A stretch of 64,000 nt of DNA, taken from contig JAOZSR010000005.1 of assembly GCA_029939575.1 (NCBI GenBank), forward strand, positions 9,997 through 73,996, given 5' to 3'. This stretch comes from Fidelibacterota bacterium. Its GTDB lineage: Bacteria > Fidelibacterota > UBA2242 > JAOZSR01. The number at the start of each line of letters is the position of its first letter. Position 1 is the first letter of the stretch. Positions 5,387-10,971 of the stretch are shown here, piece by piece. The notes under the pieces are model-generated. The model was not told where the DNA came from. It did no database searches and saw only the letters and a list, made by a program, of their open reading frames with translations. Made by a program: the position numbers and the translations under genes.

Positions 5387-6058
5387 ATGTCCGCAATATT
5401 GTTACAAAATATTCTGTTTTCTTACATTGAAAATATGCAAAATTCATCATTTAGGATGGATATCAATTTAGAAATTCCGATTGCAAAGTGGGTAACAATA
5501 ACTGGTGATTGCGGATCAGGTAAAACAACTTTAATAAAATTATTGGCAGGACTGCTTAAACCTGGGAAAGGTAATATTTTTTATCCGGATAATCTTAATA
5601 ATGATATAGGCTATATTTTTCAGAATCCAGATAATCAGTTTGTTCATTTTAATATTGAACGGGATGTTGCCTATAAACTTGAAAATCAAGGAATGAAATT
5701 TTCTTATATGCGACCAAAAGTAAAAAAATCTCTAGAAGAGGTAAATCTCTGGGAACGGAGGAATGATTCCCCTAACCAGCTTTCCGGAGGTCAAAAACAG
5801 CAGTTAGCTTTAGCCGGAATGTTAATTTCTGATCCACAGGTAGTAATTTTTGATGAACCTACATCGTTTCTTGACATTGTTGCCAGGCAAAAATTATTTC
5901 AGAAAACCCGTAAATTAGTTAATGAAAAACGTAGTGTCATTTGGTCAACTCATGAAGAAGATGTAATCCGGCAATCAGATTATGTTATTGAGTTGAAAGC
6001 CGGAAAGGTGAGCTTTGCAGGGAAAAGCAGAAAATATTTGTGTCGAAAAAATGTATGA
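5387..6058 (+). CDS. ecfA1: Energy-coupling factor transporter ATPase A1 (CbiO/EcfA family)
   Basis: GDCGSGKT, IFQNPDNQF, LSGGQKQ, FDEPT, STHE. Confidence 0.8.
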   Translation: MSAILLQNILFSYIENMQNSSFRMDINLEIPIAKWVTITGDCGSGKTTLIKLLAGLLKPGKGNIFYPDNLNNDIGYIFQNPDNQFVHFNIERDVAYKLENQGMKFSYMRPKVKKSLEEVNLWERRNDSPNQLSGGQKQQLALAGMLISDPQVVIFDEPTSFLDIVARQKLFQKTRKLVNEKRSVIWSTHEEDVIRQSDYVIELKAGKVSFAGKSRKYLCRKNV

Positions 6059-6780
6059 AAAATAATAAATATATATCAATCGAGAATTTGAAATTTCGCT
6101 ACTCAGGACAGAATGATTTCCGGCTTAATATTGAAAATTGTGAAATTGTGAGAGATAACATATTAGGAATATATGGATTAGCCGGTTCAGGAAAAACCAC
6201 ATTGGGTAAACTCATAGCCGGAATGTTGACTCCGGAATCCGGATCTGTTTTTTATCGGGAAAATGGGATTGATAGTTCAATTTCAGGGAAAAATATTATC
6301 TACTCGATGCAATTCCCTGAAAATATATTCCTGGGTATTACCATTTATGAAACTGTAGAGAAATTAGTCAAAAATCATGAAAAGGGATCTGAAATAGAAA
6401 TAGATCTGCAAACATATCTGAAATTTTTTGATGTTGATTACGATTTAATAAAAAAACGAAATGGATATGAATTAAGTTCGGGAGAGTTAAGACGTTTTGC
6501 CCTTTGTTTGAGCCTGGCATGCAGTCCGGATTTGCTGATTTTGGATGAACCGACAATTGCTTTAGGACAAAAAGGAAAGAGGCAATTACAGAATTTAATA
6601 TTAGATTTAACCAAAAAACAGCAGGTGGTAATAATATCCCATGATTTTGAATTACTTCGGGAATGTTGTGATTATTTTTGGATTATTGACAATGGGGAAA
6701 TTGTTTTTAAAGGAAAAATTCCACAAATTAGGAACAATATTGAGCTTTTGAAAAGAACAGGGTTAATATATTATTTTTAA
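6055..6780 (+). CDS. ecfA2: Energy-coupling factor transporter ATPase A2
   Basis: GLAGSGKT, QFPE, LSSGELRR, LDEPT, ISHD; ATG 6055 forms an ATGA overlap with ecfA1 (ORF track uses GTG 6040). Confidence 0.75.
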   Translation: MKNNKYISIENLKFRYSGQNDFRLNIENCEIVRDNILGIYGLAGSGKTTLGKLIAGMLTPESGSVFYRENGIDSSISGKNIIYSMQFPENIFLGITIYETVEKLVKNHEKGSEIEIDLQTYLKFFDVDYDLIKKRNGYELSSGELRRFALCLSLACSPDLLILDEPTIALGQKGKRQLQNLILDLTKKQQVVIISHDFELLRECCDYFWIIDNGEIVFKGKIPQIRNNIELLKRTGLIYYF

Positions 6781-6820: not shown

Positions 6821-8332
6821 ATGACTAATAAAGTTAGAGAAAGATACGAGCAAATACCTGTGAACAGAGTGGTCACAGTATCAAATATTATTTCAATATT
6901 AAGAGCAGCACTTGCTTTGCCAATTGTATATTTTTTAATTGAATCTCAGGAATTAATTGCATTTATATTGATAATTATTGCTATTGTATCAGATATGCTG
7001 GATGGATGGTTAGCCAGAATAAGTAATGATATCACTGAATTGGGTAAAATGCTTGATCCTTTGGCTGATAAAATTGTTATTTTTAGCATAATGCTCTATC
7101 TGATTTTTACCGATGTAATGCCAGTTGAATTTTTTGGCTTTTTATTGCTGCGAGATTTAACAATATCCCTTTTGGGAATATATATGTTAAATAATCGAAA
7201 CGTTTCTCCCAAATCTAATAAGATGGGTAAAGTTTCGGTTATTTTTACTACTGCTACAACATTGGTTTATTTATATTCTGAAAAATTTCCCGGGATACAG
7301 CAGGTTCAGATTCCTTTGGTATATATTTCTATAGTATTTCTATCTATATCCTGGATACAATATTGCTATTCATATATTGGTTTTTTTCAAAGAAAAATAT
7401 CTGGAATAAAATCAAAAGATAAATATGATAGATTAGCCAAGGGCTTATCAAAAACCGAAACCAGTTTGGCTGCAAAACTCCCTCTATTTGGAAAATTTTT
7501 TACTGTTGACGAGACAATTTTGGATGATATTGAAGCAGCCTTGCTATCTGCTGATATTGGGGTTGATCTGACTGAAGAATTGATTAAAAAATTAAAACTG
7601 GTAAAAAAATCAGAATCAACCAGGTTAAATGATATTTTGAAAGATGAATTAAAAACATTAATAAAACCCAAACAACATGAAGTCCAAAATGTAAAACCCA
7701 GGGTTATTTTGATGGTTGGAGTAAATGGAACTGGAAAGACGACAAGTATTGGTAAATTGTCATCATTATTTACAAAGCAGGGTAAAAATGTTTTAATAGC
7801 GGCAGCTGATACATTTCGGGCGGCCGCCTATGACCAACTAAAAATTTGGTCTGTCAGATCGGGAGTTGAATTTTTAGGTAATCCCCAGGGAAAAGATCCG
7901 GCGGCTGTTGCCTTTGATGCTGCAAGGTCAGCAGTTGCAAAAAACAAGGATGTGCTGATAATCGATACAGCCGGCCGTTTACATACAAAGTCAAATCTGA
8001 TGCAGGAACTTGCTAAAATGAAAAAGGTAATAAAAAAGGTTATACCTGAAGCCCCACATGATGTTTGGCTGGTTCTGGATTCTACTATCGGACAAAATTC
8101 GATTCTTCAGGCTCAGGAATTTACAAAATCAGTTGGAGTTACCGGGCTAATATTAACAAAATTAGATGGAACTGCAAAAGGGGGTGTTGTATTGGCAATT
8201 CATAAAAAACTTAACATTCCTATATATTATCTTGGAGTTGGAGAGCAATTGGACGATATGGTAGAATTTGATTCGGAAAAATTTATTAATGCGTTGTTAG
8301 ATGAACATACAAAATTAGGATTTCAAAAATGA
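6821..8332 (+). CDS. ftsY: Fusion: CDP-alcohol phosphatidyltransferase (PgsA-like, about aa 1-190) plus SRP receptor FtsY NG domain
   Basis: DMLDGWLARISNDITELGKMLDPLAD motif with multiple TMs, then GLSKT, GVNGTGKTT, DTFRAAA, DTAGR, TKLDGTAKGG in one frame. Confidence 0.9.
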   Translation: MTNKVRERYEQIPVNRVVTVSNIISILRAALALPIVYFLIESQELIAFILIIIAIVSDMLDGWLARISNDITELGKMLDPLADKIVIFSIMLYLIFTDVMPVEFFGFLLLRDLTISLLGIYMLNNRNVSPKSNKMGKVSVIFTTATTLVYLYSEKFPGIQQVQIPLVYISIVFLSISWIQYCYSYIGFFQRKISGIKSKDKYDRLAKGLSKTETSLAAKLPLFGKFFTVDETILDDIEAALLSADIGVDLTEELIKKLKLVKKSESTRLNDILKDELKTLIKPKQHEVQNVKPRVILMVGVNGTGKTTSIGKLSSLFTKQGKNVLIAAADTFRAAAYDQLKIWSVRSGVEFLGNPQGKDPAAVAFDAARSAVAKNKDVLIIDTAGRLHTKSNLMQELAKMKKVIKKVIPEAPHDVWLVLDSTIGQNSILQAQEFTKSVGVTGLILTKLDGTAKGGVVLAIHKKLNIPIYYLGVGEQLDDMVEFDSEKFINALLDEHTKLGFQK

Positions 8333-9630
8333 GAAAATCCAGAGCAAAAACATTTTCCATAATTTCGCTGGGGTGTCCTAAGAATACAGTTGATTCAGAA
8401 GTAATAAAAGGAGGATTGATTCAATCAGGATTAGAATATAAAAAGGAAGATGATAATTCTGATGTTGTTGTAATAAATACTTGTGGTTTTCTGGAGTCAG
8501 CCCGCGAAGAATCTGTGCAGACCATTTTGAATACGATAGAAAGAAAGAAGACAGGAGATATTAAAAAAGTTGTAGTTATGGGATGTATGGCCGAAAGATA
8601 TGCTGATGAATTAAAGGCAAACCTGAAGGAAGTTGACAATATTTTTGGGGTTAATGATCATAACGAAATAATTAACCAGATTGCAGAAAATACAGGTAGA
8701 TGTTTTGAGATGAAAGATAGTCGTTCTTTATTAACCAGAGATCATTTTGCGTACTTAAAAATTGCCGAAGGTTGTGATAATAAATGTTCATTTTGCTCTA
8801 TTCCTTTGATGCGTGGTAATCAGAAAAGTCGCTCTTTTGATGATATTTTATCTGAAGCAAAATATTTACACAATATTGGAGTTAAAGAACTTCTTCTGAC
8901 AGCTCAGGACCTAACCAGGTATGGATCAGATTTGAAATCTGGTCAAGATTTATATAATTTATTAGATGAATTGCTGGCCCGGGAGTTGTTTCCCTGGGTT
9001 AGGCTTATGTATTCAAATCCGGCTTTTTGGGATGCCCGGTTAACAAAATTATTTGGTAAATATAAAAGTTTATGTCCTTATATTGATATTCCTGTTCAAC
9101 ACTCATCTGATAAAATCTTGAAAAGTATGCGAAGAGGAATTGACAGGCAGGGTACTATTATGAAATTGAAGCAAATAAGGAATGAAATTCCGGATGTTGT
9201 TCTTAGAACATCGGTGATAGTTGGATTTCCCGGTGAGAGTAACCAGGATTTTAATAATCTGTTGGATTTTATTGAGGAACTGAAATTTGAACGGCTTGGT
9301 GTGTTTACTTACTCAGAAGAAGAAGATACACACGCCATTACGTTGCAGCCAAAAATTTCTCAAAAAACAATGAATCAGAGAGAAGAGATGATAATGGATA
9401 TTCAATATGATATATCCTCTGAATTTGCCAAAAGTAAAATTGGACAAAAACTGGAAGTGCTGATAGAAGATCAAAAAGATGGTAATTATATTGGCAGAAC
9501 TGTATGGGATGCTCCTGAAATAGATTGTAATATAATCGTTAAAAGTGATAAAAAATTGAAATCCGGCAACTTTTACAATGTTCGGGTTACGAATGCACAA
9601 GAATTTGACTTAAAGGGTATTGTTGAATAA
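8329..9630 (+). CDS. rimO: Ribosomal protein S12 methylthiotransferase
   Basis: SLGCPKNTVDSE, INTCGF, radical SAM CDNKCSFC, GRTVWDAPEID TRAM domain. Confidence 0.93.
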   Translation: MRKSRAKTFSIISLGCPKNTVDSEVIKGGLIQSGLEYKKEDDNSDVVVINTCGFLESAREESVQTILNTIERKKTGDIKKVVVMGCMAERYADELKANLKEVDNIFGVNDHNEIINQIAENTGRCFEMKDSRSLLTRDHFAYLKIAEGCDNKCSFCSIPLMRGNQKSRSFDDILSEAKYLHNIGVKELLLTAQDLTRYGSDLKSGQDLYNLLDELLARELFPWVRLMYSNPAFWDARLTKLFGKYKSLCPYIDIPVQHSSDKILKSMRRGIDRQGTIMKLKQIRNEIPDVVLRTSVIVGFPGESNQDFNNLLDFIEELKFERLGVFTYSEEEDTHAITLQPKISQKTMNQREEMIMDIQYDISSEFAKSKIGQKLEVLIEDQKDGNYIGRTVWDAPEIDCNIIVKSDKKLKSGNFYNVRVTNAQEFDLKGIVE

Positions 9631-10971
9631 TTGAGATGGCCTTTGATAAATAAAATAGAAACAGTTTCTTTAAAAACTTTAGGGTGTCGTTTAAATCAAT
9701 CTGAATCTGATTGCATACTTGACTCCTTGATTAAAAATGGATTAACCCACGTATCAGACGATCAAAATCCTGACCTGATAATTATTAACTCCTGTGCTGT
9801 TACCAAACAGGCAGAAGCAAAAACCAGAGGTGCTATAACAGCAGCCAAAAAAAAATCACCCATGGGGAAATTGGTTGTTGTTGGATGCTATCCCCAGGAA
9901 TCAGCAGAAAAAGTGTTGGCTATCCCTGAAGTGGATTTGGTTCTGGGGAATCATGAAAAATATAAGATAATTGATTATCTACCGAGTCTTGAAAAAATTT
10001 CCCATGAAGAAAAAGAACATTGTGTGAGTAATATGCTGGATAGCAATGTTGATAATTATACTTTTCCCATTGCCAATATTTGTTCTGCCGGGTCAACAAC
10101 CAGGGCTTTTATGAAAGTGCAGGATGGATGTGGATATTTTTGTTCTTACTGCATAATTCCCTATTTACGAGGATCGGTTAGAAGTCGAAATATCAGCGAT
10201 TGTATTGATGAAACCAAATTACTTGTTGATAAAGGATACAAAGAGATTGTGCTTTCCGGAATAAATCTTGGAACATATAAGGCTGAAACAGGTGAGAATC
10301 TGGCAGGATTATTAAAAAAAATGTTGGCAGAAACTGATATTAAAAGGATCAGATTAAGTTCAATTGAGCCTAACCTGATTAGTTCAGATCTACTGGAGAT
10401 AATTGCTCATGAAAAACGAATTTGTAGACAATTACATATTCCATTGCAACATGGTTCCGATAGAATTTTAAAACTTATGAATCGTAAATATAAATCTTCT
10501 GATTATAAATCTCTTATAGAGAAAATTAAAAACCAAATCCCAGATATTTGTATAGGGGCTGATGTTATTGTGGGTTTTCCCGGGGAACGGGATGATGATT
10601 TTTTTGAAATGCTAAAAATGTTAGAAGATTTGGCCTTGTCCTATTTGCATGTTTTCCGTTATTCAAAAAGACCCGGAACAAAGGCTAGCCAATTCAAGGA
10701 AAATGTGAAAAATAGTGTAAAAAAAGAACGTTCTAAAATACTACGTGATTTAAGTTTGAAGAAGCAGAAGAAGTTTTTTGATTCATTCGTTAATGAAAAA
10801 CTGGAAGTTTTGTTTGAGAAGAAAGATAAGCATGGATTTTATATTGGACATTCTGATAATTATATTGAAGTGGCGGTAAAAAATAATAAAAACTTGATTA
10901 ATCAAATTATTTACGTTAAAGTTTGTAAAGTTTTGGAGGATAAAGTAGAAGGAGAGTTATTAGTTGAGTAA
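9631..10971 (+). CDS. mtaB: tRNA t6A37 methylthiotransferase
   Basis: TLGCRLNQSES, INSCAVT, QDGCGYFCSYC, LHVFRYSKRPGT; TTG start. Confidence 0.88.
   Translation: MRWPLINKIETVSLKTLGCRLNQSESDCILDSLIKNGLTHVSDDQNPDLIIINSCAVTKQAEAKTRGAITAAKKKSPMGKLVVVGCYPQESAEKVLAIPEVDLVLGNHEKYKIIDYLPSLEKISHEEKEHCVSNMLDSNVDNYTFPIANICSAGSTTRAFMKVQDGCGYFCSYCIIPYLRGSVRSRNISDCIDETKLLVDKGYKEIVLSGINLGTYKAETGENLAGLLKKMLAETDIKRIRLSSIEPNLISSDLLEIIAHEKRICRQLHIPLQHGSDRILKLMNRKYKSSDYKSLIEKIKNQIPDICIGADVIVGFPGERDDDFFEMLKMLEDLALSYLHVFRYSKRPGTKASQFKENVKNSVKKERSKILRDLSLKKQKKFFDSFVNEKLEVLFEKKDKHGFYIGHSDNYIEVAVKNNKNLINQIIYVKVCKVLEDKVEGELLVE

What the first reader, a model, noticed from the sequence alone, without database searches (positions are those of the whole stretch)
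6821..8332. In-frame fusion of a PgsA-like phospholipid synthase to the SRP receptor FtsY
Seen: a complete CDP-alcohol phosphatidyltransferase motif (D-x2-DG-x2-AR-x8-G-x3-D-x3-D) and multi-TM domain joined without a stop to a full FtsY NG GTPase lacking the acidic A domain. There is no in-frame ATG/GTG/TTG between the last TM and the RLAKGLSKT helix, so FtsY has no independent start. Known: FtsY is normally peripheral and is activated by anionic phospholipids (PG/cardiolipin). Inference: a polytopic integral-membrane SRP receptor that physically couples anionic lipid synthesis to co-translational membrane protein insertion. I know of no described example.
Basis: partly seen in the sequence, partly recalled or inferred. 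Interest (0 to 1): 0.82.

Follow-up and report, generated by a model that had tools for sequence, protein, structure and literature searches.

The report
Lipid synthase fused to SRP receptor
In a group of uncultured marine bacteria (Marinimicrobia), the receptor that brings ribosomes making membrane proteins to the membrane is made as one protein with a six-helix membrane enzyme of phospholipid synthesis, so it is built into the membrane instead of binding it reversibly; the fusion is real and conserved, but a working link between the two halves is not shown.

Summary
Window 6821-8332 (+) is one 503-aa ORF. It has an N-terminal CDP-alcohol phosphatidyltransferase (CAP) domain with a complete catalytic motif and six TM helices. 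A short basic linker joins it to a full FtsY NG GTPase. No canonical in-frame start lies between them.

It is not an assembly error. Two independent metagenome assemblies reproduce the region. About 50 protein clusters at 54-62% identity share the architecture, as do 19 GTDB species representatives, and the catalytic residues of both halves are invariant. All named carriers are Marinimicrobia (Fidelibacterota).

Relatives have separate CAP and ftsY genes at the same locus, some overlapping by 8 nt. One such pair is a single A away from an in-frame fusion. The fusion therefore arose from an older operon pair, and at least one lineage split it again.

The "PgsA" label is not secure. PgsA is the best match, but the score is below the curated cut-off. 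Two basic residues that bind the glycerol-3-phosphate phosphate in S. aureus PgsA are replaced.

Most likely this is a bifunctional, permanently anchored SRP receptor, a natural counterpart of the engineered NG-membrane-protein chimera of 1997. Coupling of lipid synthesis to targeting is plausible but untested. I found no published description. It is a new variant of a known kind, of moderate interest.

The parts
6821..8332 (+). Whole fused ORF, 503 aa plus stop: CAP-family phospholipid synthase, linker and FtsY NG. The stop overlaps the ATG of the next gene (ATGA at 8329-8332).
   Evidence: identical protein P0001 on a 189-kb ENA contig
6821..7399 (+). CAP domain, residues 1-193: N-terminal amphipathic helix (2-10) and six TM helices (20-40, 44-68, 73-96, 102-126, 134-151, 157-193). 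Positive-inside charge pattern gives N-in/C-in.
   Evidence: Pfam PF01066; AlphaFold2 model, pLDDT about 90 over most of the TM core; only PDB sequence hit is S. aureus PgsA 7DRJ, E 8.9e-18
6992..7069 (+). CAP catalytic motif D58-x2-D61-G62-x2-A65-R66-x8-G75-x3-D79-x3-D83.
   Evidence: all eight residues invariant in 34 fused homologues
7381..7387 (+).
   Evidence: present; reproduced without indel in two independent assemblies
7400..7432 (+). Flexible basic linker, residues 194-204 (ISGIKSKDKYD). Variable in length and sequence among homologues, up to about 35 residues and K/E-rich in some. No start codon.
   Evidence: pLDDT below 50 for residues 194-202; variable alignment columns about 200-235; start-codon scan
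7433..7456 (+). Remnant of the FtsY alpha-N1 lipid-binding helix, L205-x2-G-L209-x-K-T212 (RLAKGLSKT). The aromatic residue upstream, which is essential in E. coli NG+1, is not conserved.
   Evidence: L205, L209 and T212 invariant, G208 and K211 at least 90% conserved; role of alpha-N1 from PMC5533587
7433..7690 (+). FtsY N domain (helical bundle), residues about 205-290.
   Evidence: Pfam PF02881; Foldseek matches to FtsY structures
7691..8299 (+). FtsY G domain, residues 291-493. G1 GVNGTGKTT (300-308, nt 7718-7744), DTFRAAA (330-336), G3 DTAGR (382-386), G4 TKLD (446-449), GVGE (472-475).
   Evidence: Pfam PF00448, E 9.8e-75; motifs invariant; Foldseek to T. maritima FtsY 1vma, TM 0.89
5387..6780 (+). 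Two overlapping ABC-type ATPase genes (5387-6058 and 6040/6055-6780) directly upstream. Same order in fused and unfused relatives.
   Evidence: synteny
8329..10971 (+). Two radical-SAM methylthiotransferase genes downstream: RimO/MiaB-like at 8329-9630 and at 9631/9643-10971. The first is conserved downstream of ftsY in all relatives.

Best explanation
The ORF encodes one bifunctional inner-membrane protein. Residues 1-193 form a six-TM CDP-alcohol phosphatidyltransferase with both ends in the cytoplasm. It belongs to the PgsA/cardiolipin-synthase branch and its active site is intact. A disordered basic tether of 10-35 residues links it to a complete FtsY NG GTPase on the cytoplasmic face.

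The enzyme replaces the A domain and most of the amphipathic membrane-targeting helix. The SRP receptor is therefore permanently anchored in the membrane rather than cycling on and off, and it is made 1:1 with the lipid synthase.

The gene arose in Marinimicrobia from an older operon pair (CAP gene, then ftsY) whose stop and start overlap, by a one-nucleotide frame change. The main advantage is probably tethering and co-expression. The fusion is tolerated because NG works when attached to any membrane protein, and it has been undone in at least one lineage.

Shown: the gene structure, its conservation, its origin and the intact motifs. Inferred: the topology, both activities, and expression as a single polypeptide.
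For: Domains and motifs.

Not an artefact: two independent assemblies are identical across the junction. About 50 clusters at 90% identity, 54-62% identical to the window protein, have the same architecture. 19 of 25 related GTDB species representatives are fused. A deep fused lineage, P0122 (42% identity), has the same synteny in three assemblies.

Both halves are under constraint: the CAP motif plus K84, R111 and Y181, and all FtsY G motifs, are invariant in 34 sequences.

Origin: separate CAP and ftsY genes sit at the syntenic locus in other Marinimicrobia, with a 106-nt gap or an 8-nt overlap. Removing one A from an A5 run in L001 gives a 504-aa fusion. CAP-ftsY adjacency also occurs in loci labelled Ignavibacteria, Melioribacteraceae, Gracilimonas and Bacteroidota, but in only 1 of 80 FtsY loci from other bacteria.

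Topology and linker: AlphaFold2 gives 6 TM helices, then a linker with pLDDT below 50, then an NG fold matching FtsY structures.

Precedent: membrane-tethered FtsY derivatives work in vivo, and natural TM-anchored FtsYs exist (PMC2780400, citing Zelazny 1997).

Splitting: L169/P0067 has FtsY with its own single TM helix and nests inside fused sequences with 99% bootstrap support. Fused forms were monophyletic in 0 of 300 replicates.
Against: There is no protein-level evidence that the 56-kDa product accumulates uncleaved. E. coli FtsY is known to be cleaved near its N-terminal anchor (Weiche 2008, cited).

Whether the genome holds another ftsY or another PgsA-type gene could not be checked. 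Only 64 kb of this genome is in hand, with no second copy in it.

The acceptor substrate is unknown: the PgsA equivalog cut-off is not reached, and the R118, K137 and T138 equivalents are replaced.

Unfused 294-aa FtsYs, placed among the fused ones in the NJ trees, have neither a TM helix nor a full amphipathic helix. Tethering is therefore not indispensable in this clade, unless those proteins bind the CAP protein non-covalently.
Confidence: 0.6

Rival explanations
1. The anchor makes anionic phospholipid (PG-phosphate, PG or cardiolipin) right beside the NG domain. This creates a local anionic-lipid patch that activates FtsY and SecYEG, so membrane growth and co-translational insertion are linked in space and in stoichiometry.
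For: FtsY strongly prefers PG and cardiolipin in its stable, active membrane mode, and so does SecYEG (PMC5533587; PMC2928010, abstract). CAP-ftsY adjacency is conserved across several FCB lineages before the fusion and is rare elsewhere, 1 of 80. That is the usual sign of a functional link. Catalytic residues stay invariant in the fused proteins. The tether is short, so NG sits within a few nanometres of the active-site opening.
Against: Lipids diffuse laterally very fast, so a single enzyme is unlikely to hold a local patch (general membrane biophysics; inference). The alpha-N1 helix that senses anionic lipid is truncated and its aromatic residue is not conserved. The fusion has been undone in at least one lineage. 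The product of the enzyme is not known. Operon adjacency could reflect only co-regulation of envelope genes.
Confidence: 0.2
2. The fused ORF is only a quirk of gene structure. The polypeptide is cut in the linker, or NG is made from a non-canonical internal start, and the cell contains a separate lipid synthase and a separate short FtsY, as its unfused relatives do.
For: The linker is disordered, basic and variable, which makes it a plausible protease site. E. coli FtsY is processed near its N terminus (Weiche 2008, cited). Unfused relatives do well with a 294-aa FtsY that starts four residues before GLxKT.
Against: There is no in-frame ATG/GTG/TTG between TM6 and codon 216, and no conserved Met or Val in the linker of 34 homologues. 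No conserved cleavage motif is visible. The frame has been kept open over a divergence down to 42% identity.
Confidence: 0.12
3. The CAP domain is an inactive relic that serves only as a polytopic membrane anchor for FtsY.
For: The PgsA cut-off is not reached, and three head-group contact residues of S. aureus PgsA are replaced.
Against: All eight metal- and CDP-binding motif residues, plus K76, K84, R111, N133, K137 and Y181, are invariant across 34 fused sequences at about 55-60% identity. The free-standing ftsY-adjacent CAP proteins of other phyla have the same replacements at the three contact positions, so these belong to the subfamily and are not decay after fusion.
Confidence: 0.05
4. 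A frameshift or chimeric assembly error falsely joined two genes.
For: Such artefacts occur. P0090/L004 is one: the C-terminal half of its CAP domain is in another frame and its FtsY has its own start, and a related genome has two genes.
Against: Two independent assemblies from different studies are identical across the junction. Dozens of diverged homologues have an open frame and different linker sequences.
Confidence: 0.01

Closest known systems
[quoted passage not shown]
   Same: The NG domain has no A domain, is tethered covalently to a membrane protein and faces the cytoplasm. The chimera was reported as fully functional in vivo, which shows that permanent tethering is compatible with SRP receptor function.
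   Different: That chimera was artificial and its anchor had no related function. Here the fusion is natural and conserved in a clade, and the anchor is a complete phospholipid-synthesis enzyme with an intact active site.
Naturally TM-anchored FtsY of Gram-positive bacteria and archaea, such as Streptomyces lividans (Maeda 2008, cited; statement in PMC2780400)
   Same: The SRP receptor is anchored as an integral membrane protein instead of by peripheral A-domain and amphipathic-helix binding. The P0067/L169 lineage within this clade has exactly this form, a single N-terminal TM helix.
   Different: Those have one hydrophobic helix with no enzymatic role. Here the anchor is six helices forming a CAP enzyme of about 190 residues.
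E. coli FtsY (A-N-G), peripheral and activated by lipid
   Same: The NG core has all GTPase motifs, passes the FtsY equivalog model and has a fold match with TM about 0.8-0.89. The L-x2-(G/S)-L-x-K-T part of alpha-N1 is retained.
   Different: There is no acidic A domain and no alpha-A1 motif. The aromatic start of alpha-N1 is not conserved. Membrane attachment is covalent, so the two-step dynamic-then-stable binding described in PMC5533587 cannot work in the same way.
Eukaryotic SRP receptor SR-alpha/SR-beta
   Same: The SRP-binding GTPase is held permanently at the membrane by an integral membrane partner (PMC2780400).
   Different: There the anchor is a separate subunit, itself a GTPase, bound non-covalently. 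Here it is a lipid synthase in the same chain.
S. aureus PgsA (PDB 7DRJ/7DRK; PMC8640168)
   Same: It is the only solved structure hit by the CAP-domain profile, E 8.9e-18. It shares the six-TM architecture and the identical catalytic motif. K83, R110 and Y181 are conserved as K84, R111 and Y181.
   Different: R118, K137 and T138, which contact the glycerol-3-phosphate-derived head group, are G, S and V/I in the fused family and in all ftsY-adjacent relatives. The PgsA equivalog score is 88-92 bits against a cut-off of 109.1.
CAP-type cardiolipin synthase (actinobacterial ClsA model NF053678; eukaryotic Crd1/CRLS1)
   Same: It is the second-best NCBIfam match in every case (75-84 bits). An uncharged lipid acceptor (PG) would fit the loss of the two basic head-group ligands; this is inference.
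   Different: The score is far below the cut-off of 240. The family signature here, GK-[VI]-[STA]-[VI], matches neither the PgsA form GKxKT nor the SKxNT form seen in several proteobacterial relatives.

Membership tests
FtsY (SRP receptor, NCBIfam TIGR00064 equivalog) | Whole-protein score above the curated equivalog cut-off | tested here: met
   328.6 bits against a cut-off of 260.7, covering profile positions 2-279 of 279
FtsY (SRP receptor) | N-domain helical bundle plus SRP54-type G domain with G1-G5 and the insertion-box DTFRAAA motif | tested here: met
   PF02881 and PF00448; motifs invariant in 34 homologues; Foldseek TM 0.80-0.89 to FtsY structures
FtsY (SRP receptor) | GTP-dependent heterodimer with Ffh and delivery of ribosome-nascent-chain complexes to SecYEG | not testable with these tools
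   Needs biochemistry or genetics
FtsY (SRP receptor) | The only ftsY of the genome, sitting at the orthologous locus | tested here: inconclusive
   Same synteny as the free-standing ftsY of relatives. No second SRP-type GTPase in the 64-kb window. The rest of the genome is not available.
CDP-alcohol phosphatidyltransferase family (Pfam PF01066) | Signature D-x2-D-G-x2-A-R-x8-G-x3-D-x3-D on TM2-TM3 | tested here: met
   Exact match at residues 58-83; invariant in the family; Pfam 98.2 bits against a cut-off of 22
CDP-alcohol phosphatidyltransferase family (Pfam PF01066) | Six-TM core with the active site at the cytoplasmic face | tested here: met
   AlphaFold2 model with six helices; the positive-inside charge pattern, read from the sequence, gives N-in/C-in
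PgsA (PGP synthase, NCBIfam TIGR00560 equivalog) | Score above the curated equivalog cut-off (109.1 bits) | tested here: not met
   88.4 bits for the whole protein and 91.6 for the CAP domain alone. It is still the best-scoring family. Of six ftsY-adjacent free-standing CAPs scanned, only one, from an Ignavibacteriaceae MAG, passes (112.5).
PgsA (PGP synthase) | Residues that bind the 3'-phosphate and 2'-OH of the glycerol-3-phosphate head group (S. aureus K83, R110, R118, K137, Y181, T138) | tested here: not met
   K83, R110 and Y181 are conserved. R118 is G, K137 is S and T138 is V/I, in the fused family and in all ftsY-adjacent relatives.
PgsA (PGP synthase) | CDP-DAG + glycerol-3-phosphate gives PGP + CMP | not testable with these tools
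   Enzyme assay or complementation needed
CAP-type cardiolipin synthase (NCBIfam NF053678 ClsA) | Score above the cut-off (240 bits) | tested here: not met
   74.7-77.7 bits
Integral-membrane (TM-anchored) FtsY variants | Hydrophobic membrane-spanning segment N-terminal to NG in the same polypeptide, with no A domain | tested here: met
   Six TM helices precede NG. The anchor differs in kind: it is an enzyme, not a single helix.

The most novel reading that the evidence does not exclude
The fusion is a 'Rosetta stone' for a real physical partnership. In these bacteria, and non-covalently in the Ignavibacteria, Balneolales-type (Gracilimonas) and Marinimicrobia lineages that keep the two genes adjacent, the SRP receptor docks on a dedicated PgsA/Cls-type lipid synthase. 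New anionic phospholipid is then made at the sites where membrane proteins are inserted. The lipid product, or the enzyme's catalytic state, tunes FtsY GTPase activation. This would also explain how the unfused 294-aa FtsYs, which lack both a TM helix and a full amphipathic helix, reach the membrane.
Probability: 0.15. Interest if true: 0.85.

Novelty: new variant of a known kind. Interest (0 to 1): 0.55.

Why it matters
How the bacterial SRP receptor finds and is activated at the membrane is a long-studied question. In E. coli the answer involves reversible, two-step binding to anionic lipids (PMC5533587).

This clade shows a natural alternative. The receptor is an integral polytopic protein whose anchor is itself an enzyme of the branch that makes anionic phospholipids. 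It is nature's version of the 1997 NG-membrane-protein chimera.

The clade also offers a ready-made comparison set within one phylum and one locus: a fused gene, an overlapping gene pair, a separated gene pair, and a split form with its own TM helix.

The set can test two things. One is whether permanent tethering costs targeting fidelity. The other is whether lipid synthesis and protein insertion are physically linked.

It is also an annotation point. These proteins are filed in databases simply as 'FtsY', so a phospholipid-synthesis gene is hidden in metabolic reconstructions of Marinimicrobia.

Tried and rejected
(1) Assembly or frameshift artefact: rejected for the window.

(2) P0090 (504 aa, 38% identity) as an independent fusion in another phylum: rejected. 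The second half of its CAP domain lies in another frame (L004 6359-6562), its FtsY has its own 'MVFGNALKK' start, and a related complete MAG has two genes.

(3) Searching GTDB genomes with the full-length alignment and with the CAP alignment. A hand-made degenerate DNA pattern for D-x-LDGWLAR-I/M worked instead.

(4) Internal start for FtsY: none found.

(5) A second CAP or SRP-GTPase gene: none in the window or in 280 kb of related loci. This says little about whole genomes.

(6) A single origin of the fusion: not supported. Fused sequences were never monophyletic in 300 NJ bootstraps of either half. These are distance trees on short alignments, so the number and direction of events beyond the L169 split remain open.

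(7) Polar-lipid data for the cultured phylum member Fidelibacter multiformis: none in its description paper. Whether it carries the fusion was not determined.

(8) Foldseek with the whole model returned only FtsY structures in the top 50. The CAP half was identified by sequence profile instead.

(9) The 187-nt 'joint' and the depth spike at 8116-8233 come from short contigs with mismatches. I read them as cross-mapping of other organisms' conserved ftsY motifs, not as variants of this gene.
Full report
OBSERVATION. Window 6821-8332 (+) is a single 503-codon ORF with an ATG start. Pfam finds a CDP-alcohol phosphatidyltransferase (CAP) domain at residues 19-172 (E 7.9e-28), the SRP54 N domain at 227-277 and the SRP54-type GTPase at 293-493 (E 9.8e-75). 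The NCBIfam FtsY equivalog is passed, 328.6 bits against 260.7. The CAP signature D-x2-DG-x2-AR-x8-G-x3-D-x3-D is present exactly at residues 58-83. No in-frame ATG, GTG or TTG lies between codon 166 (inside the last TM helix) and codon 216 (after RLAKGLSKT). There is no acidic A domain: residues 191-204 are a short basic stretch.

NOT AN ARTEFACT. The 1.75-kb region, including the T7 run at 7381-7387, is reproduced without gaps in long contigs assembled independently from two studies. One is a hydrothermal-vent metagenome (0 differences, depth about 17). The other is a marine-sediment metagenome (one substitution at 8134, depth about 15).
- A search of 5.8 billion proteins returned about 50 clusters of 470-510 residues with the same Pfam architecture at 54-62% identity. 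Those that carry a name are labelled Candidatus Marinimicrobia or Neomarinimicrobiota.
- An exhaustive HMMER scan of 1.84 billion 50%-identity representatives found three that cover both halves. They are the main family (P0032), a deep branch (P0122, 525 aa, 42% identity) and a 288-aa fragment (P0124). P0122 lies in the same gene order in three assemblies.
- A degenerate DNA pattern for the family's D-x-LDGWLAR-I/M peptide picked up 25 related loci among GTDB species representatives. Of these, 19 are fused, 4 have a separate ftsY directly downstream and 2 are cut by contig ends.
- One apparent fusion in another phylum (P0090) is a frameshift artefact.

ORIGIN. In unfused Marinimicrobia the same locus (two ABC ATPases, CAP gene, ftsY, RimO-like radical-SAM enzyme) holds two genes. 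In one lineage they are 106 nt apart (L086). In others the ftsY ATG overlaps the CAP stop by 8 nt (ATGATTAA in L001, ATGCCTGA in L229). Deleting one A from an A5 run in L001 gives a 504-aa in-frame fusion reading ...NLSKMINFGLNKT..., so fused and split states are one nucleotide apart.

A CAP gene directly upstream of ftsY also occurs in MAGs labelled Ignavibacteria, Melioribacteraceae, Gracilimonas and Bacteroidota. It occurs in only 1 of 80 FtsY-centred loci from other bacteria. The neighbourhood therefore appears to be older than the fusion and lineage-specific.

In bootstrapped NJ trees of either half, fused sequences were never monophyletic (0 of 300). The unfused L169/P0067 FtsY groups with fused L230 and L247 at 99%. 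In that lineage an unrelated 210-aa gene separates a divergent CAP gene from an FtsY that has its own single N-terminal TM helix. At least one secondary split is thus well supported. The number of other events is open.

ANATOMY. An AlphaFold2 model built on 34 fused homologues has mean pLDDT 80.7. It shows an N-terminal amphipathic helix, six TM helices (20-40, 44-68, 73-96, 102-126, 134-151, 157-193), a linker with pLDDT below 50 (194-202) and an NG fold. The NG fold matches FtsY crystal structures, with TM up to 0.89.

Lys and Arg cluster in the N terminus, the TM2-3 and TM4-5 loops and the C-terminal linker. The other loops have almost none. This gives N-in/C-in, as in solved CAP enzymes, with NG in the cytoplasm (read from the sequence).

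Across 34 fused proteins the invariant residues are:
- in the CAP half: D58, D61, G62, A65, R66, G75, K76, D79, D83, K84, R111, N133, K137 and Y181;
- in the FtsY half: the P-loop, DTFRAAA, DTAGR, TKLD and GVGE motifs.

The linker varies in length (about 10-35 residues, K/E-rich in some) and has no conserved Met. Only the C-terminal part of the alpha-N1 helix, L-x2-G-L-x-K-T, is conserved. The aromatic residue needed in E. coli NG+1 is not, as expected if a covalent anchor makes lipid binding by that helix dispensable.

WHICH ENZYME. PgsA is always the best family match but falls below the curated cut-off, at 88-92 bits against 109.1. The actinobacterial CAP-type cardiolipin synthase is second, at 75-78 bits against 240. 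The only solved structure hit by the domain profile is S. aureus PgsA, E 8.9e-18.

In that enzyme K83, R110, R118, K137 and Y181 hold the 3'-phosphate of the product, and T138 binds its 2'-OH (PMC8640168). The fused family keeps K83, R110 and Y181. It has G at R118, S (or T/A) at K137 and V/I at T138. Every ftsY-adjacent CAP protein in other phyla has small replacements of the same kind. The canonical RE...R...GKxKT pattern appears only in non-adjacent CAP genes.

The domain is therefore a distinct subfamily within the PgsA/Cls branch. Its acceptor may be glycerol-3-phosphate bound differently, or an uncharged alcohol such as PG. Any likely product of this branch is an anionic lipid (inference).

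HOW IT MOST LIKELY WORKS. The protein is a permanently anchored SRP receptor whose anchor is an active lipid synthase, made in 1:1 ratio. This is compatible with function:
- FtsY derivatives tethered by a TM domain work in vivo, and natural TM-anchored FtsYs exist (PMC2780400, citing Zelazny 1997).
- Predominant membrane localisation is reported as an essential feature of the receptor (title of PMC2780400).

I rate 'bifunctional fusion selected mainly for tethering and co-expression' at 0.6. Several points count against it: fast lateral diffusion of lipids, the truncated alpha-N1 helix, the reversibility of the fusion and the unknown product. I rate it 0.2. Processing into two proteins is rated 0.12, a dead anchor domain 0.05 and an artefact 0.01.

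Two further inferences have not been tested. The receptor must itself be inserted by the SRP pathway. And if the CAP domain dimerises like S. aureus PgsA, two NG domains would sit side by side.

COMPARISON AND NOVELTY. The closest known cases are the engineered NG-membrane-protein chimera, the single-TM FtsYs of Gram-positive bacteria and archaea, and eukaryotic SR-alpha/SR-beta. This one differs in that the anchor is a complete, conserved enzyme in the same chain.

Full-text searches for FtsY with CDP-alcohol phosphatidyltransferase, PgsA or Marinimicrobia found no description. Public annotations call these proteins simply 'FtsY'. I class it as a new variant of a known kind, with interest 0.55.

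LIMITS. There is no whole genome for this organism, so I cannot say whether a second ftsY or pgsA exists. There are no protein-level data. The trees are distance-based. The fusion status of the only cultured member of the phylum, Fidelibacter multiformis IA91 (PMC11652737), was not determined.

Noticed in passing
P0002 (JGI contig, 462 aa), corresponding to window about 7406-7528: A protein otherwise identical to the window's has an in-frame 41-residue deletion (ISGI/EAALL). It removes the linker end, the alpha-N1 remnant and the start of the N domain. It is seen in one assembly only and not in runs X1 or X2. It could be a natural variant or an assembly collapse.
   Followed up: partly
L001 5370-6008, L229, L236 (CAP genes of the unfused 294-aa-FtsY lineage): In this split lineage the CAP protein has lost two residues that are invariant or nearly so in the fused family. 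K84 (S. aureus K83, a product-phosphate ligand) is S, G or A, and D112 is Y. The catalytic motif is kept. This suggests the enzyme's constraints changed in the split lineage.
   Followed up: no
P0053-P0082, L001 6001-6885, L229, L236: The free-standing FtsY of these Marinimicrobia starts only four residues before GLxKT (MINFGLNKT, MPDWGLKKT, MLNFGLGKT). It has no A domain, no TM helix and no full amphipathic targeting helix. How it reaches the membrane is unexplained; binding to the adjacent CAP protein is one possibility.
   Followed up: partly
L169 3551-5999, L170: In the lineage where the fusion was split again, a 210-aa predicted membrane protein with no Pfam match lies between a highly divergent CAP gene (11-residue spacer in the motif instead of 8) and an FtsY with its own single TM helix.
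   Followed up: partly
L004 6001-7515 (P0090): This annotated 504-aa 'fusion' in a non-Marinimicrobia contig is a frameshift artefact. The C-terminal TM half of its CAP domain reads in another frame (6359-6562). The complete MAG at L023 has two separate genes.
   Followed up: yes
P0121 (449 aa): An FtsY representative with an internal tandem duplication of about 150 residues of the G domain (GERVGVPVVKQKMGADPASV... occurs twice). It is probably an assembly repeat artefact.
   Followed up: no
window 8329-10971: Two consecutive radical-SAM methylthiotransferase genes (UPF0004 + Radical_SAM + TRAM; RimO/MiaB-like) follow the fusion. The first starts inside the fusion's stop codon (ATGA), which suggests translational coupling along the operon.
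   Followed up: no
L132 (Bacteroidota MAG), CAP gene upstream of ftsY: In my alignment this ftsY-adjacent CAP shows non-consensus residues at most catalytic positions (S, N, G, A, L, G, T, Q, D, T). It may be a pseudogene or an extraction or alignment error.
   Followed up: no
L101, L119, L129, L150, L154, L158, L163 (proteobacterial CAP genes): These share a third signature, S-K-x-N-T, where PgsA has G-K-x-K-T. From memory this resembles eukaryotic-type (CAP) cardiolipin synthases. I did not verify that here.
   Followed up: no
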